A stretch of 64,000 nucleotides of DNA from a bacterium (GTDB lineage Bacteria > UBA8248). The DNA lies in contig OY843592.1 in the NCBI GenBank assembly GCA_963692865.2, forward strand, positions 1,504,001 through 1,568,000, read 5' to 3'. Shown piece by piece: positions 2,701-58,216 of this stretch. Numbering within the stretch: the first letter of the stretch is position 1; each line of letters opens with the position of its first letter. A program made the position numbers and the translations under genes. A model generated the notes under the pieces. It was not told the DNA's origin. It did not search any database and was given only the letters and a program-made list of their open reading frames with translations.

Positions 2701-3786
2701 TTACTCCGGCAGCCGGACCACGGCGGAGCCGGCCGTCGCCAGCTCGCCCTCCTGGTTCGTTCCGGTGATCTCGACCTTCACGGTGCGCTCGGCCTCGTTC
2801 TTCTCGACCACTTGGCCCTTGTGCCAGATGGCGTCGCCGTAGATCATGGGGCGGCGCACCTGGACGTAGAGGTTCTTCAGGAACGCGTCGTCCCCCATCC
2901 AGTTCGTGATGAAGGGGCTCACCCAGGCGAAGCGCATGACGCCGTTGTCGAACGGTCCCGGCATCCCGCGCCCCGAGGCGAGGTTGAAATCCTCGTGCTG
3001 CTGGGAGTTCTTCACCTTGATCCCGATCTGCGGGATCAGGACGGCGTTGTGCGGCGCTTTTTGGAGATCCAGATAGCCGCGCCTTCCCGCCTTGTAGGAG
3101 GGGCCGTTGCCCGCGTTCCAGGCCACCATGTCGCCGATGGTGAGGGGGCCGCGAAGCATGGGCGGCAGTTCATCGCCCACGGACACTTCCGCGAAGCGTC
3201 GCTTCTCGCCGCCGCGTCTCTCCTCCGCCTGGTAGGCGTTTTCGATTTCAGTGAATTCCGCCTCGTCGTACTTCTTGACGGGCCGCTCGTAGAGGAGCGC
3301 GTTCCCCTCCTGGAGGGTGCGGATCATCGTGCCGACCCCCCTGGCGACGACCTCGTCCGCCTCGTTCCAGTAGGTGCACTCCGAGATGATGAAGATGAGT
3401 TGCCGGCCCGCCTTGTTCGTCTTGACGAAGGAATCCTTCTGGACCGACTCGGCGCGGAGTTTGGCTCCCTGGGAGATGGGTTTTTCCCACTCGAATTCCA
3501 CGCCCCCGATGAGGGAGGACAGCGGAACCTCCATCGGCGCGCCGTGGAGGATCGGGTAGAGGACCGACACCAGAAACGCCGGCGGCGCCATGATGCCCTT
3601 GTGAGATGTGCCGGACGCGTATCCGTCGTCCAGCCAGAGCGGGTTGTCGTCGTCGATGCCGTACGCGAAGTGGCGGATGGCGTCGGCGCTCGCCTCGTTG
3701 TTCCACGCCTCGCGCTCGCGCACGGGGCGGCCGTTCAGCGCTTGCGTCTTCTCGATGAACTCGTCTATGCGTGCTTGATTCGACAA
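2701..3786 (-). CDS. Tandem MaoC/FAS1-type hot-dog dehydratase
   Basis: AIRHFAYGIDDDNPLW...APP N-terminal hot-dog domain; second domain VGDELP...TNWMGDDAFL...RRPMIYGD. Confidence 0.75.
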   Translation of the reverse strand: MSNQARIDEFIEKTQALNGRPVREREAWNNEASADAIRHFAYGIDDDNPLWLDDGYASGTSHKGIMAPPAFLVSVLYPILHGAPMEVPLSSLIGGVEFEWEKPISQGAKLRAESVQKDSFVKTNKAGRQLIFIISECTYWNEADEVVARGVGTMIRTLQEGNALLYERPVKKYDEAEFTEIENAYQAEERRGGEKRRFAEVSVGDELPPMLRGPLTIGDMVAWNAGNGPSYKAGRRGYLDLQKAPHNAVLIPQIGIKVKNSQQHEDFNLASGRGMPGPFDNGVMRFAWVSPFITNWMGDDAFLKNLYVQVRRPMIYGDAIWHKGQVVEKNEAERTVKVEITGTNQEGELATAGSAVVRLPE

Positions 3787-4413: not shown

Positions 4414-5499
4414 TCATTCGAGGAGGGGCCGCGTCTTCTCATGGAACGTCCGGGTTCTCGGATGGTTGGACGGCGAGGAGATGCGCTGCAACTCATCGAG
4501 GATTTCGCGCTGGCGCCCGCTCAGCTTGGCGGGCGTTTCCACGACCACGCGAATACGCATATCGCCGGTGTTGCGTCCCCCCGCAGGCGACAGCCCCTCT
4601 CCTCTCAAACGAAATTCCCGGCCCGACTGGGTTCCCGCGGGAATCTTTATCGTCCTTGCGTCCCGGAGCGTGGGTACTATGGCTTCATGGCCGAGGGCGG
4701 CCTGGGAGAAGCTCACCGGCAGATCGAGGAGGACGTCGTTGCCCTCCCTTCGGAATACGGGATGGGGCTTCGCGCGCACCGTGACGATGAGGTCTCCCGC
4801 CTCGCCCGAGCGCGCGCCCTCATCGCCCCTGCCCTTGATCTTGATTTGCGCGCCTTCTGCGCTCGCGGCGGGAACCTTCACCTTCAGATTCTCCCGAGTG
4901 CTCGTAAGGCCCTCTCCCCCGCATGCCCGGCACGCAAGACCCGTGTGCTCGCCGCTCCCGTCACAAGCCGAGCAGGGAACCCACAACTCCGCGAGGCCCT
5001 GCCTGTAGCGGACCTCGCCCGCGCCCTTGCACGCCGGGCAGGCGCTCGTGCGCGCGCCCGGCTCGGCGCCGCTTCCGGCGCACGAGGCGCAGCGAACGCG
5101 GCGTGATGCGGCGATCTCTTTTTCGGAATCTTTCGTCAATTCCTCGAGCGTCGCCTCGACCTGGGCGTGCAAATCCCGGGAAGCGCTTTTCTTCTCGTCC
5201 ACGGGTTCTCGCGCGGTTTTGAAGATATGGGAGAAAATGTCCTCCCACAATTCTTCGTATTCGCCTTTTCGGCGCGCCGACCTCCGCCCGCGAGGCGTTG
5301 CGCGGGCGGCGGCGCTTTTCGGGTTTTGGAGGGTTTCGTGGGCGATGACGACCAGTTTGAAGCGCTTTTCCGCCTCCGGGTCGCCGGGGTTTCTGTCCGG
5401 GTGGAATTCGAGGGCCAGCTTCTTGTAGGCGCTTTTGAGTTGAGACTTCGAGGGATTTTTCTCTAAACCCAGAATCTTGAGGGCGTCGGCGACGTTCAA
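4414..5499 (-). CDS. dnaJ: DnaJ chaperone (J domain, zinc finger, C-terminal domain)
   Basis: HPDRN motif, four CxxCxGxG repeats, C-terminal IPAGTQSG...GEG; TTG start. Confidence 0.88.
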   Translation of the reverse strand: MNVADALKILGLEKNPSKSQLKSAYKKLALEFHPDRNPGDPEAEKRFKLVVIAHETLQNPKSAAARATPRGRRSARRKGEYEELWEDIFSHIFKTAREPVDEKKSASRDLHAQVEATLEELTKDSEKEIAASRRVRCASCAGSGAEPGARTSACPACKGAGEVRYRQGLAELWVPCSACDGSGEHTGLACRACGGEGLTSTRENLKVKVPAASAEGAQIKIKGRGDEGARSGEAGDLIVTVRAKPHPVFRREGNDVLLDLPVSFSQAALGHEAIVPTLRDARTIKIPAGTQSGREFRLRGEGLSPAGGRNTGDMRIRVVVETPAKLSGRQREILDELQRISSPSNHPRTRTFHEKTRPLLE

Positions 5500-5547
5500 G
5501 TGTTCATGACCTCCGCCGGGGGAACCGGGGATACAAGCGCTTTTCGT

Positions 5548-6600
5548 CTACTGTTTTCCCGAGGAGAGGAATTTCGACACCGAGTCCGCCGTCCATTCCA
5601 CGAGCGAGACGGCGCGATCGTAGCGCATGCGCTTGGGGCCGATGATGCCGATGCTGCCCAGCGGGCGGTCGTCCATATAGTAGCGCTGGGCGACGACGCT
5701 GCAATCCTTCATCTCCTCGAAATCGTTCTCCGAGCCGATGAGAATCGTGATGTCCGAGGATCCGAGGCATTTGTCCAGCAGGCGCACGAGTTTTTCCCTC
5801 TCCTCGAACGTGCGGTAGAGAGTCTGGAGCTTTTCCGCGTTGGTGGCGAAATCGGGCTGTGAGAACACGCGCGAGGCCCCTTCCACGAAGACGGATTCCT
5901 GCGCGGCTTCGCTTTCCGAGAGCGCCTCCTTGCTGAGTTTGAGGGCTTGTTGGTAGAGGGTGTCGAGGCCCTCCCGCGCACGGGTCATTTTCTGGATGAT
6001 TTGCTCGCGCACCTCTCTCAAGGCGAGGCCGCTGAATTCTTCGTTCAGCAGGTTGGATATCCGGTTCAACTCCTCCTGGCTGATGGGGGTCTCCATGGGG
6101 ATGACGCGGTTTTGCACCACCCCGCTCATGGAGACGATGACGGCCAGGGTCTTTTCCTCCGACATCTTCACGAAGTTGATGTGCTTGAAGTGGAGCTGCT
6201 CCCCTGCGGGCAGAAGAACGAGCCCCGCCGTGTTGGTGAGTTCGGAGAGCACGCGCGTCGCCTGGGCGAGCACCTGTTCGATTTGGGCGGCCTGCGCGGA
6301 AGCGCCTAAGCGCATGGATTCCTGCTCCTCGCTCGTGAGGGTGTGCGAGTCCATGAGGTCGTCGACGAAAAAGCGGTAGCCCAGGTCGGTGGGGAGCCTG
6401 CCGGAGGAGACGTGGGGCTTGGTGAGGAAGCCCGCGTCGGCCAGGTCGCTCATGATGTTGCGGATGGTTGCGGGGCTCAGGGCGATGTCCGCGTGTTTCG
6501 AGAGCGTGCGGCTACCTACGGGTTCGCCCGTATCCACGAAAATGTTGATGATGGCGCGCAGGATTTCCCGGTTTCTCTGTGCAAGTTCCAGGGCGTCCAT
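5548..6600 (-). CDS. hrcA: Heat-inducible transcription repressor HrcA
   Basis: GEPVGSRTL, SPATIRNIMSDL, PHVSSGRLPTDLGYRFFVD, GIIGPKRMRY. Confidence 0.96.
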   Translation of the reverse strand: MDALELAQRNREILRAIINIFVDTGEPVGSRTLSKHADIALSPATIRNIMSDLADAGFLTKPHVSSGRLPTDLGYRFFVDDLMDSHTLTSEEQESMRLGASAQAAQIEQVLAQATRVLSELTNTAGLVLLPAGEQLHFKHINFVKMSEEKTLAVIVSMSGVVQNRVIPMETPISQEELNRISNLLNEEFSGLALREVREQIIQKMTRAREGLDTLYQQALKLSKEALSESEAAQESVFVEGASRVFSQPDFATNAEKLQTLYRTFEEREKLVRLLDKCLGSSDITILIGSENDFEEMKDCSVVAQRYYMDDRPLGSIGIIGPKRMRYDRAVSLVEWTADSVSKFLSSGKQ

Positions 6601-25335: not shown

Positions 25336-26160
25336 GTAGGTGACAACCCCTCCTCGGGGTTGTCCCACGCATACCATGCGGCCCGTGTCGGGCGGCGAAA
25401 AAATCAGGGCCGCATGATATGTCTGACCTACGGAGCGTCTCGCGTTTGCGGAGGGGAGACCGCCCTTCGATACGCCGCCTCCGGCGTCGTCCTGCTACAC
25501 GCCTCATTCGGGTGTCGGTGTAGGGGCCGCATACCATGCGGCCCGTTCAGGTCGGGCTCCGCGGTCGCGTCGTGGAAACGTCTTCAGGAATTGCGTCGCA
25601 TGGGCGAGATTGTAATCGTCGGCGGCGAAAACCACTCTGCGCGGGTCGCATGATATGTCCGACCTGCAATACCATTTTGATTGACGGCTGTAGGGGCCGC
25701 ATATTATGCGGCCCGTCGCCGTTCGATATGCGGGTCGCATGGTATGCGACCCCTACAACAGAAACGGCAATGCCGCCGGAATGGCGGCGAACGATTCGAT
25801 GATCGGGATCCCCTCCCGCGCCAATCGGGTTTTCACCCGTAGGTCGGACATGCCATGCGGCCCATGACGGGACGGCGAAAAAACCGGGCCGCATGATATG
25901 TCAGACATATATGTCTGACCTACGGTGGGAGCCCGACCGGCGGCGGGGTTTTCAACGGCCCCGTGCGTGGTTCCTGTGCGCCCCTCGAATGACGACTGTA
26001 GGGGCCGCATACCATGCGGCCCGTCGCCGTTCGATATGCGGGTCGCGTCTGGGCGGCGAAAAAGGCCGGGTCGCATGGTATGTCGGACATATATGTCCGA
26101 CCTACAATACCGTCTTGAATGACGACCGCAGGGGCGGACGCGCGGGTCCGCCCCTGCGAA
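25336..26160. repeat. REP/BIME-like mosaic array (left part)
   Basis: Repeated gtaggggccgcat(a/c)(c/t)catgcggccc, gggtcgcatg(g/a)tatgcgacccctac and gtc(a/g)gacatatatgtc(t/c)gacctac units. Confidence 0.9.
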
Positions 26161-26384
26161 ACCTGAACCGAAGGTCGCCCGCGTTCCACAACCCTCCGGG
26201 CGGCGTTGATCCCGGCGCCCGTTTGTGAAACCTTGGGATATCCTGAAGGGTTCGTGGCGGCTCACCCGCAGGCCCGGCGCAGGCCGGTTGTCGGGGAGGC
26301 ATGAGAGACGCCGCGAAGTTCGCGCGTGAAAACCTGATTTCATTCGCCGCCGGGCGGGCGGCCCCATTTTCGAAAGGAGCGGAC

Positions 26385-26678
26385 ATGAGCGCATACGTGG
26401 TCGGACACATCACCGTGAAGGACGAGGAGGGCTTCGGCAACTACGCCGAGCAGGGGCTCGCCATCGTCGCCTCCGTCGGGGGCGAGGTGGCGGCGAGCGG
26501 ACAGCTCGTGAAGGTGCTCACCGGCGCGCACGACAGGCGGATGTTCGTCCTCCTCAAGTTCCCCGACCAGGCGGCGGTGGAGAAGTGGTATTACTCCGAC
26601 GCCTACCAGGCCCTCATCCCCGGCCGCAACCAGGCGGCGGACATCACGTTCATCTCCTACGACGAGCCGGAGGAGTAG
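26385..26678 (+). CDS. DUF1330-family protein
   Basis: MSAYVVGHITVKD...LLKFPDQAAVEKWYYSDAYQALI..R pattern; AAAGGAG SD. Confidence 0.85.
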   Translation: MSAYVVGHITVKDEEGFGNYAEQGLAIVASVGGEVAASGQLVKVLTGAHDRRMFVLLKFPDQAAVEKWYYSDAYQALIPGRNQAADITFISYDEPEE

Positions 26679-26706
26679 GCGTCCGGGGAGCGGGCGGGAT
26701 GGTCGC

Positions 26707-27560
26707 GATCCCCTCCCGCGCCAATCGGGTTTTCACCCGTAGGTCGGACATATATGTCCGACATACCATGCGGCCCGTTGTCGTTCGGTATGCGGCCCGT
26801 CGCCGTTCGATACGCGGCCCGCGTCGGGCGAAAAAAACCGGGTCGCATGATATGCGACCCCTACCACGGAAACGGCGATGCCGCCGGAATGACGGCGAAC
26901 GATTCGGTGATCGGGATCCCCTCCCGCGCCAATCGGGTTTTCGCCCGCAGGTCGGACATATATGTCCGACATACCATGCGGCCCGTCGCCGTTCGATATG
27001 CGGCCCGCGTCGGGCGAAAAAAACCGGGTCGCATGGTATGCGACCCCTACAACAGAAACGGCGATGCCGCCGGAATGACGGCGAACGATTCGGTGATCGG
27101 GATCCCCTCCCGCGCCAATCGGGTTTTCGCCCGCAGGTCGGACATATATGTCTGACCTACGGTGGGATCCCGACCGGCGGCGGGGTTTTCAACGGCCCCG
27201 CGCGTGGTTCCTGTGCGCCCCTCGAATGACGACTGTAGGGGCCGCATATCATGCGGCCCGTGTCCGGGCGGCGCGGTTTTTGTAGGTGACAACCCCTCCT
27301 CGGGGTTGTCCCACGCATACCATGCGGCCCGTCGCCGTTCGATATGCGGGTCGCATGGTATGCGACCCCTACAACAGAAACGGCAATGCCGCCGGAATGA
27401 CGGCGAACGATTCGATGATCGGGATCCCCTCCCGCGCCAATCGGGTTTTCACCCGTAGGGGCCGCATACCATGCGGCCCGTTGCCGGAGGGGCGAAAAGG
27501 CCGGGTCGCGAAAAAAACCGGGTCGCATGATATGTCAGACATATATGTCCGACCTACGGG
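26707..27560. repeat. REP/BIME-like tandem array upstream of RAYT
   Basis: ~190-200-bp units starting gatcccctcccgcgccaatcgggttttc at ~26707, 26915, 27101 and 27423, with GTAG palindromes. Confidence 0.9.
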
Positions 27561-27609
27561 ATCATCGCGTTGCCGGACGGGCGCAGGAGAAAGGGTTGCG
27601 CTTTTGGAA

Positions 27610-28143
27610 ATGAAAAAACGAAAAGCGAACAGGTTGCGCGATCATGATTATTCCGGGAGAGGATGCTATTTCGTAACCATCTGCACGCTGAAACACGCCC
27701 GGTGTTTCGGCGGGATCACGAACGAAAGGATGCGGTTAAACGAAATCGGCGTGATCGCGCACCGGCATTGGCGGGAAATTCCGAATTGTTTTCCGAATGC
27801 GAGTCTCGATGAATTCATCATGATGCCGAACCACATTCATGGCGTTTTGTTCATCGGCGATAAAACCCGCTCCACCCGCTCCGCGCGGGCCGCATGTATG
27901 AATCCCCTGCAATCGCAGCAAGAAGACATTGACCGCTCGAAGATGTATTTGTCGAAAATCATCCAGGGATTCAAATCCTCCGTCACCCGTACGGTCGGAA
28001 AACGCCGGGACGACCATGCTTTCGGCTGGCAGCGATCATTCTACGACCACGTTATCCGGGACGATGCGAATCTGAACCGCATCCGGGAATACGTCCGGAA
28101 CAACCCCCTGAAATGGGCGTTCGATAAATACAATCCGGAATGA
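27610..28143 (+). mobile_element. REP-associated tyrosine (HUH, Y1) transposase, RAYT/TnpA-REP
   Basis: RLRDHDYS..GCYFVTICT, MPNHIHG (HUH), FKS, WQRSFYDHVIR, EYVRNNPLKW; flanked on both sides by REP arrays. Confidence 0.92.
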
Positions 28144-28147
28144 CGAC

Positions 28148-28580
28148 CGCAGGGGCGACATGTATGCGTCCCCTGCAAAAACGCGTAATGGTCGCGTAGG
28201 GGCCGCATACCATGCGGCCCGCGTTCGGGCGGCGAAAAAACCGGGTCGCATGATATGTCTGACCTGCAAAAGCGCGCAATGGTCGCGTAGGGGCCGCATA
28301 GTATGCGGCCCGTTGTCGTTCGGTATGCGGCCCGCGTCGGGCGAAAAAAACCGGGTCGCATGGTATGCGACCCCTACGGGCGGCGTTCGGGTGTCGGTGT
28401 AGGGGCCGCATATCATGCGGCCCGTGTCGGGGCGGGGGGGTTGCAACGGCCCCGCGCGCCCCCTCGAATGACGACTGTAGGTCGGACATATATGTCCGAC
28501 ATAGTATGCGGCCCGTCGCCGTTCGATATGCGGCCCGCGTCGGGCGAAAAAACCGGGTCGCATGGTATGCGACCCCTACA
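28148..28580. repeat. REP array downstream of RAYT
   Basis: Several gtaggggccgcat...atgcggccc and gggtcgcatggtatgcgacccctac copies. Confidence 0.9.
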
Positions 28581-28625
28581 ATCGAATCCTGATCGACCCG
28601 CGGCGCGCCTCTCGCGCGGCCGCCG

Positions 28626-29612
28626 TCACGGGCCGTAGCGCAGCCGCGCCACCGCGCCCCGCTGGGCGAGCTGGCCCTGCGCGTAGCGCCCCGGCATGGA
28701 CGGCGAGCGCCAGCGGCCGGCGAGCTGCATCTCGACCAGCGACGCCCCCGCGCTCGCCAGGCTCTGCGCGCTGCCCACGCGCAGGCTGTGCCCGCTGACG
28801 CGCCCCTCCACGCCCGCCTCCCGGGCGCGGCGGATGATGATGCGCCGGACGCTCCTCTCCGTCAGGCGCCCCGCGCTCACCCGGCCCGACCTGTGGACGG
28901 CCCGGAACAGCGGCCCCTCCGCCAGGGCGGCGGCCAGCAGCCACGCCCGGACGCGCGCCACGGTCGGCCCGCCCAGGAACTGCGCGGCGCCCCCGCCCTC
29001 CTGGTCGGTCTTCGAGCGCCGCACCAGCGCCGTCTTCTCGTCCAGGTCCACGTCGCCCACGTCGAGCGCCGATATCTCCGACACCCGGAGCAGCGCGTCG
29101 CTCGCCACCGCCACGATGGCCGCGTCGCGCAGCCCGGCCAGGCCCCCCGCGCGCTCGGCCATCGCCGCCGCCCGGTCCGCCTGCTCCCAGCGCACCCCCG
29201 CCACCTGCCCGCGGCCGCGCTCGGCGGCCATCCGCCTGAACCCGGCGAGAACCCGCTCCGCCGCCGGGCCCACCGGAGAGGGCCGGCCCCGGAGCCTGGC
29301 CCGGAAGCGCAGCGCCGCGACCGCCATGGCGGCGCAGGCCGCGGAGAGCCCCGCCTCGTAGAGGTCCCCCAGGTAGGCCGCCACCCCGGCGTCGGTCTCG
29401 GGCCGCCCCGAACGCGCGAACCCCCGGAGCGCCGCCTCGTAGGCCCGCCGCGTGTTGCGCGCCATCGAGGCCTCCGCCAGGTCCGCGGCCGCGCCGGCCG
29501 GGCGGGCCAGGGCCTGCGCCCTCGCCGAAGCGGCGTCCCGTGCCGGGTCGGGTGGTGTCGCCCCCGTGGTCATGGCGAGAAGCCAACCTTCCGGGTCCGT
29601 AGCTGTTTCCAT
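28626..29612 (-). CDS. Cre-like tyrosine site-specific recombinase
   Basis: ARNTRRAY N-terminal domain, RDAAIV..LLRVSE (R), RRSKTDQEG (K), SGHSLRVGSA (HxxR), GRWRS (W), PGRYA (Y); start at METATD or MTTGAT (29573). Confidence 0.9.
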   Translation of the reverse strand: METATDPEGWLLAMTTGATPPDPARDAASARAQALARPAGAAADLAEASMARNTRRAYEAALRGFARSGRPETDAGVAAYLGDLYEAGLSAACAAMAVAALRFRARLRGRPSPVGPAAERVLAGFRRMAAERGRGQVAGVRWEQADRAAAMAERAGGLAGLRDAAIVAVASDALLRVSEISALDVGDVDLDEKTALVRRSKTDQEGGGAAQFLGGPTVARVRAWLLAAALAEGPLFRAVHRSGRVSAGRLTERSVRRIIIRRAREAGVEGRVSGHSLRVGSAQSLASAGASLVEMQLAGRWRSPSMPGRYAQGQLAQRGAVARLRYGP

Positions 29613-29745
29613 CGCCTGGTGTCGTTCAGGCGCCTCGTGGATTACCGGGTATGATAGACCATGGCGGGGATGGGCGATAGCGGGGAATTCCCGGAAAAAA
29701 AGCCGTCTTCGCAGATGGAGATCGAAGCGGGGCCGTGGATATTGG

Positions 29746-29940
29746 ATTCTGATAATTATTGTTACGGGACGCCGGAAACCCCGTTCTCCGCCGTGAGGCT
29801 CGTTCCGGGGCGCACACGGACTTTGAATGAGCGGAAAAAGACGCAAAACGGCGCAAAAAAATCCCTCGGAGACTTCAAAATCGCGCTTGACATGTTCTTG
29901 AGAAGTGATATATCGTCTGATAACAATAATTAGCGGCGGG
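29746..29940. promoter_or_regulatory. Putative invertible promoter segment bounded by inverted TAA-N6-TTA recombination sites
   Basis: TAATTATTGTTA (29753-29764) and TAACAATAATTA (29921-29932) are exact reverse complements; internal TTGACA (29887-29892)-18 nt-TATCGT (29911-29916) faces the lipoprotein gene. Confidence 0.65.
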
Positions 29941-30203
29941 CAGATTTTATGCGAGGCAGCCGAAAGATATGCAGCTTCTGGAGGGCCGGAAAAGGCGTGG
30001 ACATGCCGCAAGAGTTCGCGTCCCGCGGAAAGCGCCGCTACCGCCCCGAACATGAGTCGTTAAATCCAAATCCGCCGTATTTCAAGTTGCTGTGAAAATA
30101 ACCGATTTGTAAAGGCCCGTAAAAGGAGGAAAGGAGGTTCATCGGAGAAAGCCGGAAATTCACGGAAAATCCCTTTTTCTATGTTTTCAGGAGGATTCAC
30201 TCA

Positions 30204-33200
30204 ATGACGTGGAGAAATAAACCAATTCACAAGCTGTACGCTTTCGCGGTGGCGGCGGTCTTCGCGCTGACGCTGGCGGGCTGCGGCGGCGGCGGTGGAA
30301 GCGCCTCGCCTCCTCCGGGCCCGACGCCGATTGAAAGCGCCAAACTGCGTGTGCAGGCTCTTTACGACGCGGCGAAGAAAGCAGCGGCGGACGCGCAGAC
30401 GGAACTCGATGGCTTGGATGCCAAGGCGTTTGCTGCTCAGAGCGCTTATGCGGCGGCCCTGGATGCGGCTCGGGCGGCTCAGCAGGCGGCCGACGCTGCG
30501 GGCGACGCGAATAGCGTGGCCCAGGGTGCGAGCGAACTCTCCGTGGTGGAGGCGCAGGAGAAGGTCGCTACGACCGCAAAAGAGAGGGCCGACGCTGCGA
30601 AGGCTGATACCATGAAGCATGCCAAAGCAGTTGGCGACGCTCATACAACGTACATGGCGGCTGTGGATGCCGGTGTAAAAGCGGCGAACAAGGCGGCTGT
30701 GGACGCTAAAGCGGATGTGACTACGTTGCAAAAAGAGCTCGATGCCTTGGAGCCGGAACAAAAGGCGGCCGGCGCCGCTGCCTACGAGAATGCCATGGAT
30801 CAGTTGGAGGCTGCCAAAGCGGCGGCGGCGGCGGCTCAGCAGGCGGCGGACGCGGCGGATGCGGCGTCCAAAACAACCCCTCCCGACAAGGCCCAGGTGG
30901 AAGCGAATCTGGCTCTGGCGAAAGCAGAGCGGGATAAGGCCTCTGATGCGCTCGCGGCCGGGCGGACCGCTATCGGTATCGTGATAGCGAGTTATCACGG
31001 GGACCGGAGAACGAAGGCTATAGCTGCGGCGAAGCTTGCGCTGGAAACGGCGAAAACAGCGAAGACCGGGGCGGTGAGTAAATTGGCCGAGCTCATCGCG
31101 TACAGCAAGACATTTGGCACCGATGACGAAGAAGTAGTCGAGCCTACGAAGCAGCAGGTGTCGGATGCCACGGAAGAGAAGAACAAGGCCGTCCAGGCTG
31201 AGGCGAATGCGATGGCCGCGGTCCAAAAGGCCGAGGCTTGCGGCTCTACTGACTACAAATGTGCAGAAGGCGCTAAGGAGGAGGCCGAGACGGCGCTTGA
31301 TGCCGCGGAGAAGGCGGCGAAGGCGATCACCGATGCAATAGCGGCTCTGGACGCTCGTGTGGTTGTGGTAAACAAAAGGATCGAAGATACGGGCGAGCTG
31401 AATAAAGCTGGCACAGCCGCCGACACCGCCGCGAAAGACGCCGAAGCCAAAGCGAAAACGGCCGAAGAGAATGCGAAAAAGGTCGCAGATCTCACATCGA
31501 GCAGTTCCCCGGGGGCTATAGCGGCCAAAAATGCGGCGGATGCAGCAAGAGCCGCTGCGAACAGGGCCAAAGCGGCGGCGGACAAGGTTAAGGACGCCGT
31601 GATGAAGGGCACGGACAACAGCAAGGACAGGTTGGACCCGGTGAAGAGAGGCGAACATCTCGCAACAGCGAAGAGCGAGCTGGCCAAGGTCGAGGAAGAA
31701 CAGGCCAAGGTCGTAGCCCAGTTGGCCATAGTCGATAACGAGCTCGCGCTTGCGGATTCGAGGGATCAACAGCGAAGGCTCGCCGCCGCGCGGACAGACG
31801 CGAAGACGTACGCGGATATGGCGAAAGGCCACTACGATTCGGCGATGAGTAAGGCGACGCAGGCCAGGGCGGAGGCCGTCAAAGCCAGGGACGCCGCGAA
31901 CAAGGCCAAGGCCGCCAGGACGGATTACGCCAACGCGGACAAGGAGGCCAAGAAAGCGGAGGATGCCGCCACGGCCGCCGAGAAGGCGCGTGATGCCGCG
32001 AAAACCGCGTCGGACGCCGCGAAAGCCGAGTATGATAAAGCTATGGCGGCAGACGTCACCGTCGCGGACGCCGAGGCGGCGCGGGACGAGGCGAAGAAAC
32101 AAAACGGCATAGCCCAAGCGAACGACACGGGCGCCGGCGGCGCGGGTCCGCAGTATATGGCCGCGAAGGCCGCGGCGGACATGGCGGCGAAGGCGGCCAA
32201 CACCCACGTCCTCGGGTTGTTCAAGATAGCGAACGCTTATCACATCGTGACGGCGGCCGATCCGGACGCCAACACGGATGACACGGAAGCCGGACTCATC
32301 GCGAAGAACAAGGCTGCCCACGTGGACGCGGTGAGTTCCGCCATCGCCACGGCGGCAGCGGACGCGGACAACAGTCAGGGAACCACCAGCGTCACGGATC
32401 ACAATACCGGCGGCGGGGCCTTTGACTCTACCGACGATACGGGAACCAGGTGGCCCTACAACGCCGACAACGACGCCACGAACGGTAGTGGCGACGGCAA
32501 GATCACGGTCGTGGTAGATATCAATAACACGTCTTACACGACAACGCGGGACGACCCGAGCACCAAAGATACTGACGAAACCAACTTCACTTCAGAGGCG
32601 GGTCTCGGCAGCTTCAACCACGGGTTCGAGATATCTCACGATACCGTCGAGCAAGGTGATGATAACACGAAGGTTGACGTGGGTGATACAAAGACCCGCA
32701 TCCTCGTGTTCACGGACAAGAAACAGGGCAGCGCGAGGAAAGCCTCGGTTAACGTATCTATCAATAATCGCCCGGCTGTGGCCGGCCGGATACAGATAGG
32801 TGCTACCGACACTGATTTAAGCAACGCTACTTACGACCACGACGGAGACGGGAAGAATTACCTCAGTGGCGCCACTTTCGCATGCCCAACCGGAACTGAT
32901 TGCGACTATACAATTAGTGCTGGCAAGGTAACCACTATGACCGGTTACCGTGTCACCGTATCGGGCGTGATACCAGCGGTGAACCCCACGGAAGACCTGA
33001 GCTACCTTGCCTTCGGGATCTGGCTGCAGGAAACGCTGACGGCAGCCAACACCCCGAATACCTACCAATTCGGCGCCTTCGCCGACGGTGGGTCCGCGGT
33101 AACTGCAACTCTGGCGGGGGTTACAGGTGATGCGACCTACACGGGCAAGGCGGCGGGCGTCTACACCAACGGCGCCAAAGTCGATTACTTCGAGGGCGAC

Positions 33201-33596
33201 GCTAAGCTCACGGCCGACTTCGACGATTCGACCATCACCGGGATGATCAACAACATCGTGGCGGGCGGCGTGTCCATGACCGACGTCATCAACCTGAACG
33301 ACGATGGGACTCCTGCTGACGGCAACATTGGAAACGGCACCTTCAACGGAGACGCCCGGATGGGCACCGGCACGACGAAGGACAACGTCACGACGTATAC
33401 CTACAACGGCACCTGGAGCGGCCAATTCTACAATCCGGCCGATGAAGACGACGGCAATAATGCCATCAACAAGGCGCCCGGCTCCGCCGCCGGCACCTTC
33501 GGCGTTACCGGAACGGACAAAATGGGGACGCCGGACGACTCCAAGGACGACGTCACCACGAGTTACGTGGGCGCGTTCGGCGCGCACAAGCAGTAG
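30204..33596 (+). CDS. Large surface lipoprotein: Ala-rich coiled-coil stalk plus C-terminal TbpB-like beta-barrel
   Basis: Lipobox LAGC then Gly/Pro linker; ~650 aa Ala/Lys/Asp helical region; C-terminal GDATYTGKAAG..LTADF..WSGQFY..AGTFG..VGAFGAHKQ; AGGAGG SD. Confidence 0.8.
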   Translation: MTWRNKPIHKLYAFAVAAVFALTLAGCGGGGGSASPPPGPTPIESAKLRVQALYDAAKKAAADAQTELDGLDAKAFAAQSAYAAALDAARAAQQAADAAGDANSVAQGASELSVVEAQEKVATTAKERADAAKADTMKHAKAVGDAHTTYMAAVDAGVKAANKAAVDAKADVTTLQKELDALEPEQKAAGAAAYENAMDQLEAAKAAAAAAQQAADAADAASKTTPPDKAQVEANLALAKAERDKASDALAAGRTAIGIVIASYHGDRRTKAIAAAKLALETAKTAKTGAVSKLAELIAYSKTFGTDDEEVVEPTKQQVSDATEEKNKAVQAEANAMAAVQKAEACGSTDYKCAEGAKEEAETALDAAEKAAKAITDAIAALDARVVVVNKRIEDTGELNKAGTAADTAAKDAEAKAKTAEENAKKVADLTSSSSPGAIAAKNAADAARAAANRAKAAADKVKDAVMKGTDNSKDRLDPVKRGEHLATAKSELAKVEEEQAKVVAQLAIVDNELALADSRDQQRRLAAARTDAKTYADMAKGHYDSAMSKATQARAEAVKARDAANKAKAARTDYANADKEAKKAEDAATAAEKARDAAKTASDAAKAEYDKAMAADVTVADAEAARDEAKKQNGIAQANDTGAGGAGPQYMAAKAAADMAAKAANTHVLGLFKIANAYHIVTAADPDANTDDTEAGLIAKNKAAHVDAVSSAIATAAADADNSQGTTSVTDHNTGGGAFDSTDDTGTRWPYNADNDATNGSGDGKITVVVDINNTSYTTTRDDPSTKDTDETNFTSEAGLGSFNHGFEISHDTVEQGDDNTKVDVGDTKTRILVFTDKKQGSARKASVNVSINNRPAVAGRIQIGATDTDLSNATYDHDGDGKNYLSGATFACPTGTDCDYTISAGKVTTMTGYRVTVSGVIPAVNPTEDLSYLAFGIWLQETLTAANTPNTYQFGAFADGGSAVTATLAGVTGDATYTGKAAGVYTNGAKVDYFEGDAKLTADFDDSTITGMINNIVAGGVSMTDVINLNDDGTPADGNIGNGTFNGDARMGTGTTKDNVTTYTYNGTWSGQFYNPADEDDGNNAINKAPGSAAGTFGVTGTDKMGTPDDSKDDVTTSYVGAFGAHKQ

Positions 33597-33657
33597 AACG
33601 AAACGCGACGCCTTCGGCCTCGGGCTTTGCGGCCCGGGGCCGGGGCGGTTGAAGGAG

Positions 33658-33780
33658 AGCGAAAAGGGGGTTGCCCGTTGGTTGCTTCCCTCGTGATAAG
33701 CAAACTGTACCGCTCCCTGCTTATGAGTTTGAGTCCTCCGAGGAGGGAGCGGGAACAACCGGGCAGCCCCCGTTTTCGCT
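33658..33780. other. Long nested stem-loop downstream of the lipoprotein gene
   Basis: agcgaaaagggggttgcccg pairs with cgggcagcccccgttttcgct; inner ccgctccct/agggagcgg stem. Confidence 0.55.
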
Positions 33781-34116
33781 TCATGCAATCAGGCCGACGC
33801 GCCGGATGCGAACAAGGCGGGCGCCGGCTCCGAAAACGGCGAGACCCGGGACCCCCTGACGGACGACCCGGCGGCGAGGCGGCCGCCGCGGCGGGGCGAA
33901 ACGCGCCGTTTAAGGACGCGAGGGCGGCGCTCGCCGCCCCGGAAGACGCAGCGAGCGGCGGCGGGAGGCCATGACCCGCTTCACGCAACCAGGCCGACGC
34001 CCCGGTTCGGCCCGGCCCGGTTTCGCCTCAGGGGTTGCGCCGCGCAATTCCCGCCTTCAGCCGGCCGTCGAGGGGCGCCCCGGCCCTTTTGCTTCGCAGA
34101 ACCCGGCCCCTTCAAG

Positions 34117-35013
34117 CGGTTGTTGAAAACCCCTCCTTGCCCGGTCGATTCCTCCCTCATCGCTCGGAACCGGCCACCGCCGTCATTGCCGTTTCGATTG
34201 TAGGGGCTGTTGTAGGTCAGACATATATGTCTGACATATCATGCGGCCCTGTTTTTTCGCCGCGCCCGGACGCGGGCCGCATACTATGCGGCCCCTACAG
34301 TCGTCAATCGAGGGGCGCGCAGGAACCGCGCACGGGGCCGCCGAACCTCCCCCGCCGGTCGGTCAGGACCCCGCCGCAGGCCGGACATATAGGTCCGGCA
34401 TACCATGCGGCCCTGATTTTTCGCCGTCCGAACGCGGGCCGCATGGTATGCGGCCCCTGCGGAAAGCAACCCTCGAGGGGCTGTTGGAAAAGTCCCTCGA
34501 TGCGGGAAAACCACCGTCATTCCGGCCTTGAGCCGGAATCCATTTTATGATTTTCGCTTTCGTTTTCGCATTTGATTCCGACTCGCTGGTGGGAGCGCCG
34601 CGCCCGGATCCGGAACGGATGAGGCGGATATATATGGGGCGTCCGTATCTTCCCCGTCCGGGAGCGAGGACGTCCGGTCGAAGGGCCAAAGACAAAGGCG
34701 AAAATGGATTCCGGCTCAAGGCCGGAATGACGATCAAAACCGTCGAACCCTCCCCGCAGGCCGGACATATATGTCCGACGTACCATGCGGCCCTGATTTT
34801 TCGCCGCCCGAACGCGGGCCGCATGATATGCGGCCCCTACGGGTGAAAGCCCGACCGGCGCGGGAGGGAATCCCGATCACCGAATTGCCCGCCGTCATTC
34901 CGGCGGCATTGGCGTTTCTGTTGTATGTCGGACATATACGTCTGACCCTGCGTTCCGAATGCGGGACGATGGCGCGCGGCGCCCGCTCCCGGGCCGGGTT
35001 TATCAACAACCCC
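34117..35013. repeat. Intergenic mosaic of REP, GTCATTCCGG palindromes and TIR-like ends
   Basis: gttgttgaaaacccc; gtaggtcagacatatatgtctgac; gtcattccggccttgagccggaatcc paired with ggattccggctcaaggccggaatgac. Confidence 0.8.
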
Positions 35014-42583: not shown

Positions 42584-43175
42584 GGGGTCAAACGCGAGTG
42601 AGGAGCGAGCGTTTGCAGACCGAGGAGAGGGGGTGCCGGCGTGATGCGATGCGAGAGGAAATGCGGGCGGTTGCGGGGAAATGCGCGGTCGGCGAAAAAC
42701 TTTTTTTGCCGCCGTATCTGAGTGCCGGACGCTAAGATTTATATGACAACCCTTTTGATTACAACCACTTGCAAGAGATAAAATTTTCAGGAATTTATCC
42801 AAAAACCCCGTGAATTTATACAAATTTATACAAAATATCATTATTATCATTATCAACCGTTTCCCTGTACCCACCGGCGTCGCCCCTCCGGCTGCGGCGG
42901 TCAAACCTTGGCAAAGAGCAAGAATCCATTCCAACCGAAGAAGCAGGAATTGACAGCCCGATGACGGGAGATTTCCGGGCCAAGTAAAAAGATTTGCCGT
43001 TTTCACTCCCGCCGCACCACTGAATCCCATGAGAAACCTCCGCTCTTTCCGTTCAATTCCAGACGATACGGGAAACCGCTTTCCCGCGCCGCGCGCACGA
43101 TACCGCAGGGCGGGATTTCGGGGGGAAGAGGAATTGCGGGGAAATGCGTGGGTGAGGCTGTATGGCGACGGGAAA

Positions 43176-43670
43176 CACTCCCCCCTTGAGGGGGAGTCAA
43201 CGAGGCAAGGGCGAAGCCCGCAGGCGAGTTGGTGGGGGGACATGCCACAGAAAAAGCTCCCCCCACCGAATCGGCCTTCGCACAAACCGCTCGGCCTCTT
43301 CGACTCCCCCTCAAGGGGGGAGTGATTTCACCAACGATTGGGCAGGAATTTTGCTCTTGTAGAGGTGTCGAATTTCCCCGAGGAGGGGAAGTTCGAGCGT
43401 GGCCGCCCGCGCTTCTTCGAGATTCCCGTCATTCCATTCAGGTTGCCGTCATTCCGGTGTCAGACCCGACTGGACAAGGAGGGTTTGACGGAATCCGGAA
43501 CGGATTTGGTGTGCGCGTTGCGGCGTTTCATCCGCCTGCCGTGAAGTCGGAAAACCGACAGAATAAAGGCAAAGGCAAACCAATGGATTCCGGCATACGC
43601 CGGAATGACGGCGATGGTGAATTCCGAGCTAGAAGGGGTTTTCAACAACTCCCTCAAGGGGAGTAATTCA
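43176..43670. repeat. CTCCCCCTTGAGGGGGAG and GTCATTCCGG palindrome mosaic
   Basis: cactccccccttgagggggagtc...gactccccctcaaggggggagtga; a related copy lies at ~57852-57999. Confidence 0.8.
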
Positions 43671-57736: not shown

Positions 57737-57784
57737 CCCGGAGCATATCGAAACCAAAGCGCCAGAGAATCACTCCCCTCTTGA

Positions 57785-58216
57785 TGGGGTTGTTGAAAAA
57801 GTCCTTTCGGATCGAGCCGAACCATTCTCCCCTTGCAAAGCCCTCAACAACCACTCCCCCCTTGAGGGGGAGTCAACGCGGCAAGGACAATGTCCGCAGC
57901 CGCGTTGGTGGGGGGGGAGCTTTTTACTGTGGCAGTCCCCCCACCAGCTCGACTTCGGGCTTCGCCCTCGTCTCTCTGACTCCCCCTCAAGGGGGGAGTG
58001 AACTTCAAAAGCGAGCGCGCAACCGAAATCGCTTCCTAGAGGTTTTTCAACAACCCCTTTTGGGTTCGATTGCAAAGCCGTCATTCCGGCGCATGCCGGA
58101 ATCCAGGGAATTTGCCTTTTGCTTTTCGCCGCTAATCCCGTTCGATTAAAGACGGAATGAAATACCGAAATGTGCCCACCCTTATCGGCTCTGGATTCCG
58201 GCATGCGCCGGAATGA
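57785..58216. repeat. TIR shell (57785-58057) with CTCCCCC palindromes, followed by a GTCATTCCGG pair
   Basis: ggggttgttgaaaaa...tttttcaacaacccc; gtcattccggcgcatgccggaatcc...ggattccggcatgcgccggaatgac. Confidence 0.75.

What the first reader, a model, noticed from the sequence alone, without database searches (positions are those of the whole stretch)
28626..33596. Putative DNA-inversion (phase-variation) switch: Cre-like recombinase, invertible promoter and giant TbpB-like surface lipoprotein
Seen: a tyrosine recombinase (minus strand, R-K-HxxR-W-Y residues intact) and a 1130-aa lipoprotein (plus strand) are divergent. Between them lie two sites, tctgaTAA-TTATTG-TTAcgggacg (29748-29771) and cgtctgaTAA-CAATAA-TTAgcggcg (29914-29938). 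Their 12-bp cores are exact reverse complements, so the asymmetric 6-bp spacers are identical but inverted. Inside the ~170-bp interval, TTGACA-18-TATCGT abuts the right site and points at the lipoprotein. Established: TAA-N6-TTA is the core geometry of dif/Xer-type tyrosine-recombinase sites, inverted sites with matching spacers give inversion, and fimS-type switches work this way. Inference: this is an ON/OFF switch for a surface antigen, assembled here in the ON state. Flipping would aim the promoter at the recombinase gene itself, giving built-in feedback. I do not know of a described switch pairing a Cre-like recombinase with a TbpB-barrel lipoprotein.
Basis: partly seen in the sequence, partly recalled or inferred. 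Interest (0 to 1): 0.9.

Follow-up and report, generated by a model that had tools for sequence, protein, structure and literature searches.

The report
Invertible promoter switch for surface lipoprotein
A short stretch of DNA carrying a promoter sits between a Cre-like recombinase gene and a surface lipoprotein gene and can be flipped, so that it reads either one gene or the other; related genomes hold many copies of this switch, mostly flipped the other way.

Summary
Window 29753-29764 and 29921-29932 are exact inverted TAA-N6-TTA cores. They flank a 156-bp segment holding a sigma-70-like promoter, between a Cre-like tyrosine recombinase (28626-29573, minus) and a 1130-aa lipoprotein (30204-33596, plus).

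- **Opposite orientation in relatives.** In 15 of 16 alignable public loci, and in 37 of 40 switch copies in same-genus genomes, the flanks align one way and the segment the other way. There the promoter faces the recombinase; here it faces the lipoprotein.
- **Covarying arms.** The 6-bp spacer differs between loci (9 variants in 18 loci), yet the two arms of each locus are always exact reverse complements.
- **Contig breaks.** Independent read-derived contigs break exactly at the two cores. A strain-variant contig of this genome starts exactly at the right core.
- **Cargo.** Its C-terminal domain has the fold of Slam-dependent surface lipoproteins (NHBA, hemophilin, fHbp). The genome encodes one Slam.

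Not shown: switching within one clone, the transcription start, or recombinase activity. I read it as a new variant of the known invertible-promoter kind, with the recombinase gene itself under the invertible promoter. Six literature searches found no description.

The parts
28626..29573 (-). Cre-like tyrosine recombinase gene, 315 aa, about 80% G+C
   Evidence: PF00589 at 62 bits. Best solved relative is Cre, E 5e-14, with the R/K/HxxR/W/Y columns aligned. G+C is 0.77-0.82 against 0.61 for the genome. More than 2339 homologues, the closest at 70-85% identity.
29574..29747 (.). Spacer between the recombinase start codon and the left site; leader of the recombinase mRNA in the flipped state
   Evidence: Conserved with the recombinase gene in relatives as one block, window 28616-29764. 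No promoter-like site on the minus strand.
29748..29771 (.). Left (recombinase-proximal) recombination site; core TAA-TTATTG-TTA at 29753-29764
   Evidence: A read-derived contig of run X4 breaks exactly at 29753.
29765..29920 (.). Invertible segment, 156 bp
   Evidence: Aligns in the opposite orientation to its flanks in 15 of 16 loci and in 37 of 40 copies in relatives. Flip test.
29887..29916 (+). Sigma-70-like promoter inside the segment, here facing the lipoprotein gene
   Evidence: TTGACA-18-TATCGT, 10 of 12 positions. The block GCGCTTGACATG is conserved in the relatives. My own alternative reading is TTGACA-16-TATATC with TG upstream.
29914..29938 (.). Right (cargo-proximal) recombination site; core TAA-CAATAA-TTA at 29921-29932
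   Evidence: Contig C8 of the same assembly starts one base before this core. Contigs of X2 and X4 start at 29903, and one contig of X3 starts at 29921.
29933..30203 (+). 271-nt 5' leader of the lipoprotein gene, conserved between loci
   Evidence: 77% identical to C8:2-250. 73-88% identical to leaders in relatives. No Rfam family.
30204..33596 (+). Cargo: a 1130-aa lipoprotein. Signal peptide with lipobox (residues 1-27), an Ala/Lys-rich helical region, and a C-terminal handle-plus-barrel domain (residues 800-1130, window 32601-33593)
   Evidence: sequence. AF2 model with mean pLDDT 87.7. Foldseek matches: NHBA C-domain E 2.3e-5, hemophilin, fHbp, HpuA, LbpB. 145 homologues of the domain, none named.
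33657..33780 (+). Conserved structured element just after the cargo gene; possibly the 3' boundary of the cargo cassette. Its role is unknown.
   Evidence: 87-91% identical in 11 related loci and in C8. Fold of 33597-33810: -115 kcal/mol, z -5.8. No Rfam match.

Best explanation
This is a site-specific DNA-inversion switch (an inverton).

**Mechanism.** A Cre-like tyrosine recombinase, encoded next to the switch, recombines two inverted sites. Each site has arms close to C(T/C)GATAA around a 6-bp spacer. Recombination flips the 156-bp segment between them, which carries one outward-reading promoter.

**State in this window.** The promoter reads across the right site and a 271-nt leader into a surface lipoprotein gene: cargo ON. 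The recombinase gene then has no consensus promoter of its own.

**Flipped state.** This is the common one in relatives. The same promoter reads into the recombinase gene and the lipoprotein gene is left without it: cargo OFF, recombinase ON. The enzyme's own supply therefore depends on the state of the switch.

**Shown here:** the sites, the promoter-like motif, the recombinase family, both orientations among homologous loci, covarying arms, and the cargo fold.

**Inferred:**
- that the neighbouring recombinase is the enzyme that flips the segment;
- that the promoter is active;
- that flipping goes on within populations today;
- that the lipoprotein is displayed on the surface through the genome's Slam protein.
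For: 1. **Geometry.** Exact inverted 12-bp cores 168 bp apart, with a promoter abutting one of them.

2. **Both orientations exist.**
   - By blastn, the window flanks 28616-29764 and 29921-30308 align on one strand and 29753-29936 on the other in 15 loci. They are colinear only in L011.
   - The flipped window aligns with 7 of 7 loci tested; the native one does not.
   - In 61 related genomes, 37 segment hits lie opposite to their flank hits and 3 are window-like. The three window-like loci were fetched, and in each the promoter faces the cargo flank.

3. **Covariation.** 18 loci (17 plus the window) show 9 different spacers, and every pair is a perfect reverse complement. Three further loci behave the same way.

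4. **Conserved placement.** 21 of 26 close recombinase loci have a perfect repeat of 12 nt or more, 158-183 nt apart, 93-467 nt upstream of the recombinase start. In the 16-nt-arm scan (at most 2 mismatches), control stretches behind the gene gave no hit in 15 of the 17 close loci that had a control stretch.

5. **Site goes with the enzyme.** In more distant recombinase loci the full palindromic site GATAA-N6-TTATC occurs 11 times in 10 of 54 loci, against 0.5 expected. All lie within about 1.7 kb of the recombinase gene.

6. **Read-derived contigs.**
   - X1 spans 29091-30226 in the window state with no differences, so the state is not a misassembly.
   - X4 contigs break at 29753 and 29903.
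   - An X2 contig joins 29692 to 29936 on opposite strands.
   - Contig C8, a strain variant of this locus, starts one base before the right core.

7. **Enzyme.** Cre is the best solved relative, and all catalytic columns are kept.

8. **Cargo is always a surface or secreted protein.** Lipoproteins with a near-identical signal peptide occur in 11 loci plus the window. Other loci carry giant adhesin-like proteins with Calx-beta, fn3 and SWM repeats, a PAP2 lipoprotein, or a collagen-like protein.
Against: - No reads were seen that show both orientations within one strain. The opposite-strand joint in X2 lies in a contig that differs from the window at 10 of 88 flank positions, so it may come from a second strain or species.
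- Contigs cannot give proportions of the two states.
- No transcription start or expression data exist.
- The promoter is a consensus match only.
- The flipped state predominates (37 of 40). If the recombinase were freely active whenever it is transcribed, one would expect the cargo-ON state to accumulate. Extra control or bias must therefore be assumed.
- One window-like locus (L172) has a recombinase broken over three frames and degenerate arms. Another (L171) has no adjacent recombinase. Some copies may therefore be frozen.
- The counts overlap in genomes, and kin are not independent.
Confidence: 0.85

Rival explanations
1. A fossil rather than a live switch. Inversions did occur at these sites in the past, but in this genome the segment is now fixed facing the lipoprotein, giving constitutive expression and no ongoing phase variation.
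For: In the window state the recombinase gene has no promoter-like site of its own. Two of the three other window-like loci look decayed or orphaned: L172 has a recombinase in three frames and degenerate arms, and L171 has no adjacent recombinase. No within-strain mixed reads were seen.
Against: The window recombinase ORF is intact and all catalytic columns are kept. Both cores are perfect, and three of the four arms are close to consensus. Contig breaks fall exactly at the cores in X2, X3, X4 and at the start of C8, which suggests mixed junctions in these samples. L170 is window-like with an intact recombinase.
Confidence: 0.08
2. The two sites are protein-binding operators rather than crossover sites. 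They could be autoregulatory sites of the recombinase, or Fur-type iron boxes for an iron-regulated TbpB-like gene. On this view the orientation differences are unrelated rearrangements.
For: The arms (GATAA / TTATC) look superficially like Fur-box hexamers; that consensus is recalled, not tested. The right site overlaps the expected transcription start, so a bound protein would repress transcription.
Against: The 6-bp centres differ between loci while staying exactly complementary within each locus. That is expected for crossover regions and not for operators. The breakpoints of the orientation change coincide with the cores in every locus. Cargo is not limited to possible iron-uptake proteins.
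Confidence: 0.03
3. The sites are resolution, integration or dif-like sites of a mobile element that carries the recombinase. The apparent inversion would be a by-product.
For: The recombinase gene has about 80% G+C in a 61% genome. It is multi-copy in relatives, and its family occurs in MAGs labelled with many phyla. The TAA-N6-TTA geometry is recalled as Xer/dif-like.
Against: The sites are inverted, which gives inversion and not excision. They always bracket the same about 160-bp promoter segment at a fixed distance from the gene. XerC and XerD models score 40 and 34 bits against cut-offs of 335 and 330. No direct-repeat partner or element ends were found.
Confidence: 0.03
4. An assembly artefact: the orientation in the window is a misassembly at a short inverted repeat.
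For: Inverted repeats can confuse assemblers, and the assembly contains strain-variant contigs.
Against: The repeat is only 12-19 nt. An independently built contig of run X1 covers 29091-30226 with no difference from the window, though X1 may be the source sample. Three other genomes show the same state.
Confidence: 0.01

Closest known systems
fimS switch of Escherichia coli type 1 fimbriae (FimB/FimE tyrosine recombinases). Recalled from general knowledge; no paper read here.
   Same: A short invertible segment bounded by short inverted repeats carries the promoter of a surface-structure gene. The tyrosine recombinase is encoded next to it. Recombinase supply depends on switch orientation. 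Some related loci here have two tandem recombinase genes (L017, L020, L023), as fim does.
   Different: - The NCBIfam model for tyrosine-type DNA invertases (NF007371) scores 23 bits against a cut-off of 222. The enzyme is nearest to Cre.
- The promoter itself alternates between the cargo and the recombinase gene. In fim, orientational control of fimE is recalled to act on the transcript.
- The sites have a Cre/Xer-like layout of arm, 6-bp spacer and arm.
- There are many copies per genome, with locus-specific spacers.
Cre/loxP of phage P1
   Same: Cre is the best solved-structure relative: E 5e-14 over residues 54-311, with the catalytic R, K, H-x-x-R, W and Y columns shared, including the Trp typical of Cre. 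Sites are two inverted arms around an asymmetric spacer whose identity between partners is required. One enzyme with inverted sites gives inversion.
   Different: Identity to Cre is low. The arms here are about 7-9 bp, shorter than the arms I recall for loxP. The role is gene regulation in a chromosome, not plasmid maintenance. Nothing was tested biochemically.
Invertible promoters of Mycoplasma penetrans mpl lipoprotein genes, and the Xer1-driven Vpma system of M. agalactiae. The first is recalled. For the second I saw only the search listing and the start of the abstract of PMC2268961 and PMC5634654.
   Same: Families of variable surface lipoprotein genes are switched by tyrosine-recombinase site-specific recombination. 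In M. penetrans (recalled) each gene has its own small invertible promoter, as in the multi-copy relatives here.
   Different: Here each switch usually carries its own recombinase gene, which is the alternative target of the promoter. The spacers differ between loci. The hosts are diderm, and the cargo has the Slam-lipoprotein fold. Vpma switching moves genes to one expression site, whereas here only the promoter segment turns.
RecV-dependent switches of Clostridioides difficile and invertible promoters of Bacteroides. Seen only as search listings and starts of abstracts: PMC7446863, PMC4747536, PMC5903667.
   Same: Many small invertible regulatory segments per genome control surface structures.
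   Different: In those systems one or a few recombinases, encoded elsewhere, act on many sites. Here the recombinase is local, and locus-specific spacers should keep the loci apart.
Slam-dependent surface lipoproteins (TbpB, LbpB, HpuA, fHbp, NHBA, hemophilin). Seen only as the listing of the review PMC7857515.
   Same: An N-terminal lipobox and a C-terminal handle plus 8-stranded barrel by predicted fold. One Slam gene in the genome lies beside a paralogous lipoprotein.
   Different: No sequence-family match. There is a very long Ala/Lys-rich helical N-terminal part. The ligand is unknown. TM-scores are modest (0.64 on the NHBA domain, about 0.3 on the query).

Membership tests
Tyrosine recombinase (Pfam Phage_integrase), Cre-like branch | PF00589 catalytic domain scoring above the curated cut-off | tested here: met
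   62 bits against 27.1, residues 134-299.
Tyrosine recombinase (Pfam Phage_integrase), Cre-like branch | Catalytic R, K, H-x-x-R, (H/W) and Y residues present | tested here: met
   In the alignment to Cre chain 7rhz_B, llRvsE, RsKt, GHSlRvG, GrW and grY match the Cre columns. H262, R265, W288 and Y297 are invariant and R163 nearly invariant in 29 homologues; K188 is not on either list.
Tyrosine recombinase (Pfam Phage_integrase), Cre-like branch | Recombination activity on its sites | not testable with these tools
   Needs an inversion assay.
Invertible promoter switch (inverton, fimS type) | A short DNA segment bounded by inverted repeats | tested here: met
   12-bp exact cores, 19 nt at 84%, with 156 bp between them.
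Invertible promoter switch (inverton, fimS type) | An outward-reading promoter inside the segment | tested here: inconclusive
   A consensus match of 10 of 12 positions, conserved in relatives. No transcription start data.
Invertible promoter switch (inverton, fimS type) | Both orientations found in nature, with breakpoints at the repeats | tested here: met
   15 loci inverted and 1 colinear. 37 copies inverted and 3 window-like. Flip test.
Invertible promoter switch (inverton, fimS type) | Both orientations present within one clonal population (phase variation) | tested here: inconclusive
   Contig breaks at the cores and one opposite-strand joint in a variant contig. C8 starts at the core. 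Strain mixture cannot be excluded.
Invertible promoter switch (inverton, fimS type) | A site-specific recombinase that acts on the repeats | tested here: inconclusive
   It is adjacent in the window and in 21 of 26 close loci. The site type co-occurs with distant family members. Activity was not tested.
XerC/XerD-dif chromosome dimer resolution | Protein reaches the XerC or XerD equivalog score | tested here: not met
   40.1 bits against 335, and 33.9 against 330.
XerC/XerD-dif chromosome dimer resolution | A single site per replicon | tested here: not met
   Paired inverted sites beside the gene, and up to 7 copies per related genome.
Slam-dependent surface lipoprotein (TbpB/fHbp/NHBA/hemophilin) | Lipoprotein signal peptide with lipobox | tested here: met
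   LTLAGC, with Cys at residue 27. No dedicated predictor was run.
Slam-dependent surface lipoprotein (TbpB/fHbp/NHBA/hemophilin) | C-terminal 8-stranded barrel with handle | tested here: met
   AF2 mean pLDDT 87.7. The top Foldseek hits are all of this family: NHBA 2.3e-5, HphA 1.2e-4, fHbp, HpuA, LbpB.
Slam-dependent surface lipoprotein (TbpB/fHbp/NHBA/hemophilin) | A Slam translocon in the genome | tested here: met
   PF04575 at 99 bits at C1:1253133-1254002, beside a paralogous lipoprotein. It is not adjacent to the window gene.
Slam-dependent surface lipoprotein (TbpB/fHbp/NHBA/hemophilin) | Sequence membership in a TbpB or related Pfam/NCBIfam family | tested here: not met
   No family at E 0.1 for the C-terminal domain. 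None for the whole protein.
Fur-type or other operator pair | Sequence of the site conserved between regulated loci | tested here: not met
   The central 6 bp differ between loci and covary within each locus.
Shufflon or multi-gene expression-site systems (vsa, vpma) | Several sites per locus that rearrange coding segments or move genes to one expression site | tested here: not met
   There are two sites per locus, and only the promoter segment differs in orientation.

The most novel reading that the evidence does not exclude
A self-wired toggle. One invertible promoter transcribes either its own Cre-like recombinase or a surface-protein gene, and unequal arm strengths set the resting state.

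In the window group of loci, the end of the segment away from the promoter has a poor arm (TTA-cggg), and the cargo-side flank has a one-mismatch arm. The common recombinase-ON state therefore puts both weak arms in one site, which makes a poor substrate.

This would be a natural counterpart of the engineered left-element/right-element mutant lox strategy (recalled). It would explain why 37 of 40 copies rest with the cargo OFF.

Locus-specific 6-bp spacers would make up to seven or more switches per genome independent of each other. The result would be combinatorial variation of Slam-type lipoproteins and adhesins.
Probability: 0.35. Interest if true: 0.78.

Novelty: new variant of a known kind. 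Interest (0 to 1): 0.66.

Why it matters
Invertible promoters are well known in gut and pathogenic bacteria. This family has several features that set it apart.

- **Host.** It lies in uncultured bacteria known only from metagenome-assembled genomes.
- **Enzyme.** It uses a Cre-like recombinase.
- **Wiring.** The recombinase gene is the alternative target of the promoter that it flips.
- **Cargo.** It controls Slam-type surface lipoproteins and giant adhesins. My searches found no report that these are switched by DNA inversion.
- **Repertoire.** Same-genus genomes carry up to seven copies with different spacers, mostly OFF. This looks like a repertoire of variable surface proteins, and it offers a handle on how such bacteria vary their surface towards a host, phages or grazers.

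For tool builders, it is a natural set of Cre relatives with short sites and seemingly free choice of spacer, and perhaps with a built-in directional bias.

Tried and rejected
- **Fur-box idea.** The arms resemble GATAAT-type hexamers (recalled). I rejected this because the centres covary within loci and differ between loci.
- **Metagenome pattern scan.** Scanning for promoter plus site, to count states in independent samples, gave 86 stretches. None had a recombinase hit or a partner repeat, so all are chance matches.
- **Repeats upstream of distant recombinases** (66% identity or less; 16-nt arms with at most 2 mismatches, within 700 nt upstream). None of the expected type was found. Full palindromic sites appeared instead, sometimes flanking the recombinase gene itself. 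This was only partly followed.
- **Rfam** on the intergenic region and on the 3' element gave nothing near threshold.
- **Pfam and NCBIfam on the lipoprotein.** No family was found. A weak NF058595 'invert_tail' match (21 bits against a cut-off of 37) lies on the signal peptide and was disregarded.
- **PDB sequence search with the lipoprotein** gave only a coiled-coil chance hit at E 0.31.
- **Third copy of the 12-mer** at C1:1116302. It has no recombinase-type arms and lies in an ordinary intergenic region, so I treat it as chance.
- **Idea that C8 is a second, paralogous locus.** Rejected: C2-C8 are strain-variant contigs, mostly about 96-98% identical to parts of C1 (C3 and C4 partly lower). 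C8 matches the window region on both sides of a different lipoprotein body, though only at 88-98%.
- **Holes and low shares in the read table** (X3 has no cover at 29570-29904; runs X5-X10 hold small shares). No conclusion was drawn.
- **Literature.** Searches found no description of this switch. Only listings and starts of abstracts were seen, no paper was read, and supplements are closed.
- **Sponge origin.** My impression that several named MAGs come from sponge microbiomes rests on recalled isolate-name prefixes. It was not tested and is not used.

Full report
**What is in the sequence**

- Window 28626-29573 (minus strand) encodes a 315-aa protein with a Phage_integrase domain, 62 bits. 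The longer ORF listed on that strand (28626-30053) runs through the intergenic region and is not the gene.
- Cre is its best solved relative, E 5e-14 over residues 54-311. The alignment keeps the Arg, Lys, His-x-x-Arg, Trp and Tyr columns. The Xer and invertase models of NCBIfam score far below their cut-offs.
- The gene has 77-82% G+C in a genome of 61%.
- Window 30204-33596 (plus strand) encodes a 1130-aa protein. It has a lipobox (LAGC, Cys27), a long Ala/Lys-rich region and a C-terminal domain.
The cores TAA-TTATTG-TTA (29753-29764) and TAA-CAATAA-TTA (29921-29932) are exact reverse complements, and the repeat extends inward to 19 nt at 84%.
- The best promoter-like match of the region, TTGACA-18-TATCGT, ends two bases into the right site and points at the lipoprotein gene. 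No promoter-like match lies on the minus strand.
- A perfect 12-nt inverted repeat at this spacing arose in 6 of 2000 shuffles of the intergenic region.

**The decisive comparison**

The recombinase has more than 2339 homologues, the closest at 70-85% identity. A scan of one genome per species returned 80 loci.

- Of the 26 closest loci (L003-L027 and L050), 21 carry a perfect inverted repeat of at least 12 nt. The arms are 158-183 nt apart and lie 93-467 nt upstream of the recombinase start. L003 has the same repeat with one mismatch.
- By blastn, the window's recombinase side (28616-29764) and its leader side (29921-30308) align with these loci on one strand. The piece between the cores (29753-29936) aligns on the other strand in 15 loci: L004-L010, L015, L016, L021-L023, L025, L027 and L050. 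It is colinear only in L011. The other ten close loci had no alignable segment.
- I flipped the window segment in silico, and it then aligned end to end with 7 of 7 loci tested. The native orientation did not.
- In those loci the conserved promoter block (GCGCTTGACATG ... TATATT) abuts the site next to the recombinase gene and points into it.
- A search of 61 related genomes gave the same picture. 37 segment hits lie on the strand opposite to their neighbouring flank hits: G002 6, G003 6, G013 6, G011 4, G012 4, G016 3, G018 3, G021 2, and G005, G008 and G017 one each. Three hits are colinear like the window.
- DNA matches were essentially confined to the window's own genus, 16 of 22 genomes.
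- I fetched the three colinear loci, and in each the promoter faces the cargo flank.
- The sets share genomes, and kin are not independent. The counts describe the situation; they are not a statistical test.

**The sites behave as crossover sites**

- Across 17 loci plus the window there are nine different 6-bp centres: TTATTG, TTATTA, TTGTTG, TTGATG, TTGACG, TTGCTG, TTACTG, TTGCGA and CTGTTA. In every locus the two arms are exact reverse complements.
- Three further loci add the centres TCACTA and TTACTA.
- This is expected if partner sites must share their central region. It is not expected of operators, so I dropped my own Fur-box idea.
- The arm consensus is C(T/C)GATAA on each side of the centre.
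- In more distant recombinase loci (51-64% identity), the full palindromic site GATAA-N6-TTATC occurs 11 times in 10 of 54 loci, where 0.5 is expected. It always lies within about 1.7 kb of the recombinase gene.
- In three of them (L052, L057, L066) an inverted pair brackets the recombinase gene itself.
- The site type therefore travels with the enzyme family, while the architecture varies.

**Evidence from this organism's own samples**

- The seven small contigs of the assembly are strain variants of parts of the main contig, mostly about 96-98% identical.
- C8 is the variant of this very locus. It starts one base before the right core and continues through a 77%-identical leader and the conserved signal peptide. 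It then encodes a different, shorter lipoprotein body and rejoins the window sequence at the last codons.
- Four public runs hold the stretch. Only their contigs could be laid.
  - In X1 one contig covers 29091-30226 without a difference, so the window state is not a misassembly. X1 may be the source sample.
  - In X4 contigs break at 29753, the first base of the left core, and restart at 29903.
  - In X2 a contig also starts at 29903. That position begins the 30-mer that ends with the last base of the right core.
  - In X3 a variant contig starts at 29921.
  - In X2 a contig of a variant (10 differences in 88 flank positions) joins 29692 to 29936 on opposite strands. This is what the flipped left junction looks like.
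- These breaks are what mixed junctions would produce in a k-mer graph. Strain or species mixtures could produce them too, so within-clone switching is not shown.

**The cargo**

- An AlphaFold2 model of residues 800-1130, built on 33 sequences, has mean pLDDT 87.7.
- Its best Foldseek matches in the PDB are all Slam-type surface lipoproteins. They are the NHBA C-domain (E 2.3e-5, TM 0.64 on the target), hemophilin HphA, fHbp, HpuA and the LbpB N-lobe.
- No sequence family matches. The 145 homologues of the domain are unnamed.
- The genome has one Slam gene (PF04575, 99 bits), beside a paralogous lipoprotein.
- In 11 related loci the cargo is a lipoprotein with an almost identical signal peptide and a leader of 236-272 nt (about 555 nt in L021 and L022). 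Nine loci show the same barrel domain.
- Other switches face different cargo. These are giant proteins with Calx-beta, fn3, cadherin-like or SWM repeats (L009, L011, L018), a PAP2-type lipoprotein (L012, L013), or a collagen-like protein (L020).
- All cargo proteins are exported or surface proteins.
- A structured 125-nt element follows the cargo gene here, in C8 and in 11 loci.

**How I think it works**

- The neighbouring recombinase flips the 156-bp segment.
- In the window state the promoter reads through the right core and the leader into the lipoprotein gene, and the recombinase gene has no consensus promoter.
- In the flipped state the same promoter reads into the recombinase gene, and the cargo is left without it.
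- Because the -10 element abuts a recombinase-binding arm, bound enzyme should also dampen the promoter.
- Flipped copies predominate, 37 of 40. This argues that transcription of the recombinase alone does not quickly turn the switch.
- One possible reason is visible in the arms. In the window's group of loci, the end of the segment away from the promoter has a poor arm, and the cargo flank has a one-mismatch arm. The flipped state therefore joins both weaker arms in one site. This part is speculation.
- Some copies look frozen. L172 has a recombinase split over three frames and degenerate arms. L171 has no adjacent recombinase but shares its spacer with L010 of the same genome.

**Comparison and novelty**

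- In function this is an invertible promoter of the fimS kind.
- In enzyme and site layout it is nearest to Cre/lox.
- In biology it recalls the individually switched lipoprotein genes of Mycoplasma penetrans (recalled) and the multi-switch genomes of Bacteroides and Clostridioides. For those I saw only search listings: PMC4747536, PMC7446863, PMC5903667 and PMC2268961.
- It fails membership of Xer/dif and of the FimB-type invertase model on score.
- Six full-text searches found no description of it. No paper was read in full, and supplements are closed.
- I rate it a new variant of a known kind.

Noticed in passing
G000 contig C8:1-2500 against window 29921-34144: Co-occurring strains carry different lipoprotein bodies at the same locus. 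One is about 550 aa and the other 1130 aa; only the barrel is alike, at 30%. The bodies lie between conserved ends: leader plus signal peptide at 88%, and last codons plus 3' element at 93-97%. This looks like cassette replacement by homologous recombination at the conserved ends.
   Followed up: partly
window 33657-33780: A conserved, strongly folded element follows the cargo gene (z -5.8 for the fold of 33597-33810). It is 87-91% identical in 11 related loci, with a second copy at C1:1831514 beside a fragment of a lipoprotein 3' end. No Rfam family matches.
   Followed up: partly
L052, L057, L066 (about 4590-5960 in each): In three gammaproteobacterial loci with a recombinase about 51% identical, an inverted pair of GATAA-N6-TTATC-type sites brackets the whole recombinase gene (about 1.3 kb). 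This resembles Hin-type segments that carry their own invertase.
   Followed up: no
L171 (G002:C1:2669500-2675500), sites at 3040 and 3219: An orphan switch with the promoter facing a lipoprotein gene and no recombinase within 3 kb. It has the same TTGCTG spacer as locus L010 of the same genome, so it may be served in trans or may have arisen by exchange between loci.
   Followed up: partly
L017, L020, L023 (second recombinase hit about 1.1 kb from the first): Two tandem recombinase genes sit beside one switch in three loci.
   Followed up: no
window 25500-28550; also 34500-34930, 43170-43600 and 57780-58210: Dense palindromic short repeats, with words such as GCATACCATGCG and GACATATATGTC, and longer hairpin repeats present in many copies genome-wide. 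An ORF at 27286-28143 has a weak IS200-like Y1 transposase match (22.2 bits against a cut-off of 23). Together these suggest REP-type elements with their transposase.
   Followed up: no
window 30240-30306: The signal-peptide and lipobox coding stretch is shared by many contigs that diverge on both sides. Summed contig depth there rises to 58-97 in three of the four runs. It belongs to a large lipoprotein gene family in these samples.
   Followed up: no
G000:C1:1116302: A third exact copy of the 12-mer core lies in an intergenic region, without recombinase-type arms. It is probably chance.
   Followed up: partly
window 28626-29573 and homologues: The recombinase gene has about 80% G+C in a 61% genome. 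Its family occurs at 50-85% identity in MAGs labelled with many phyla, often in several copies per genome. This suggests horizontal spread of the enzyme.
   Followed up: partly
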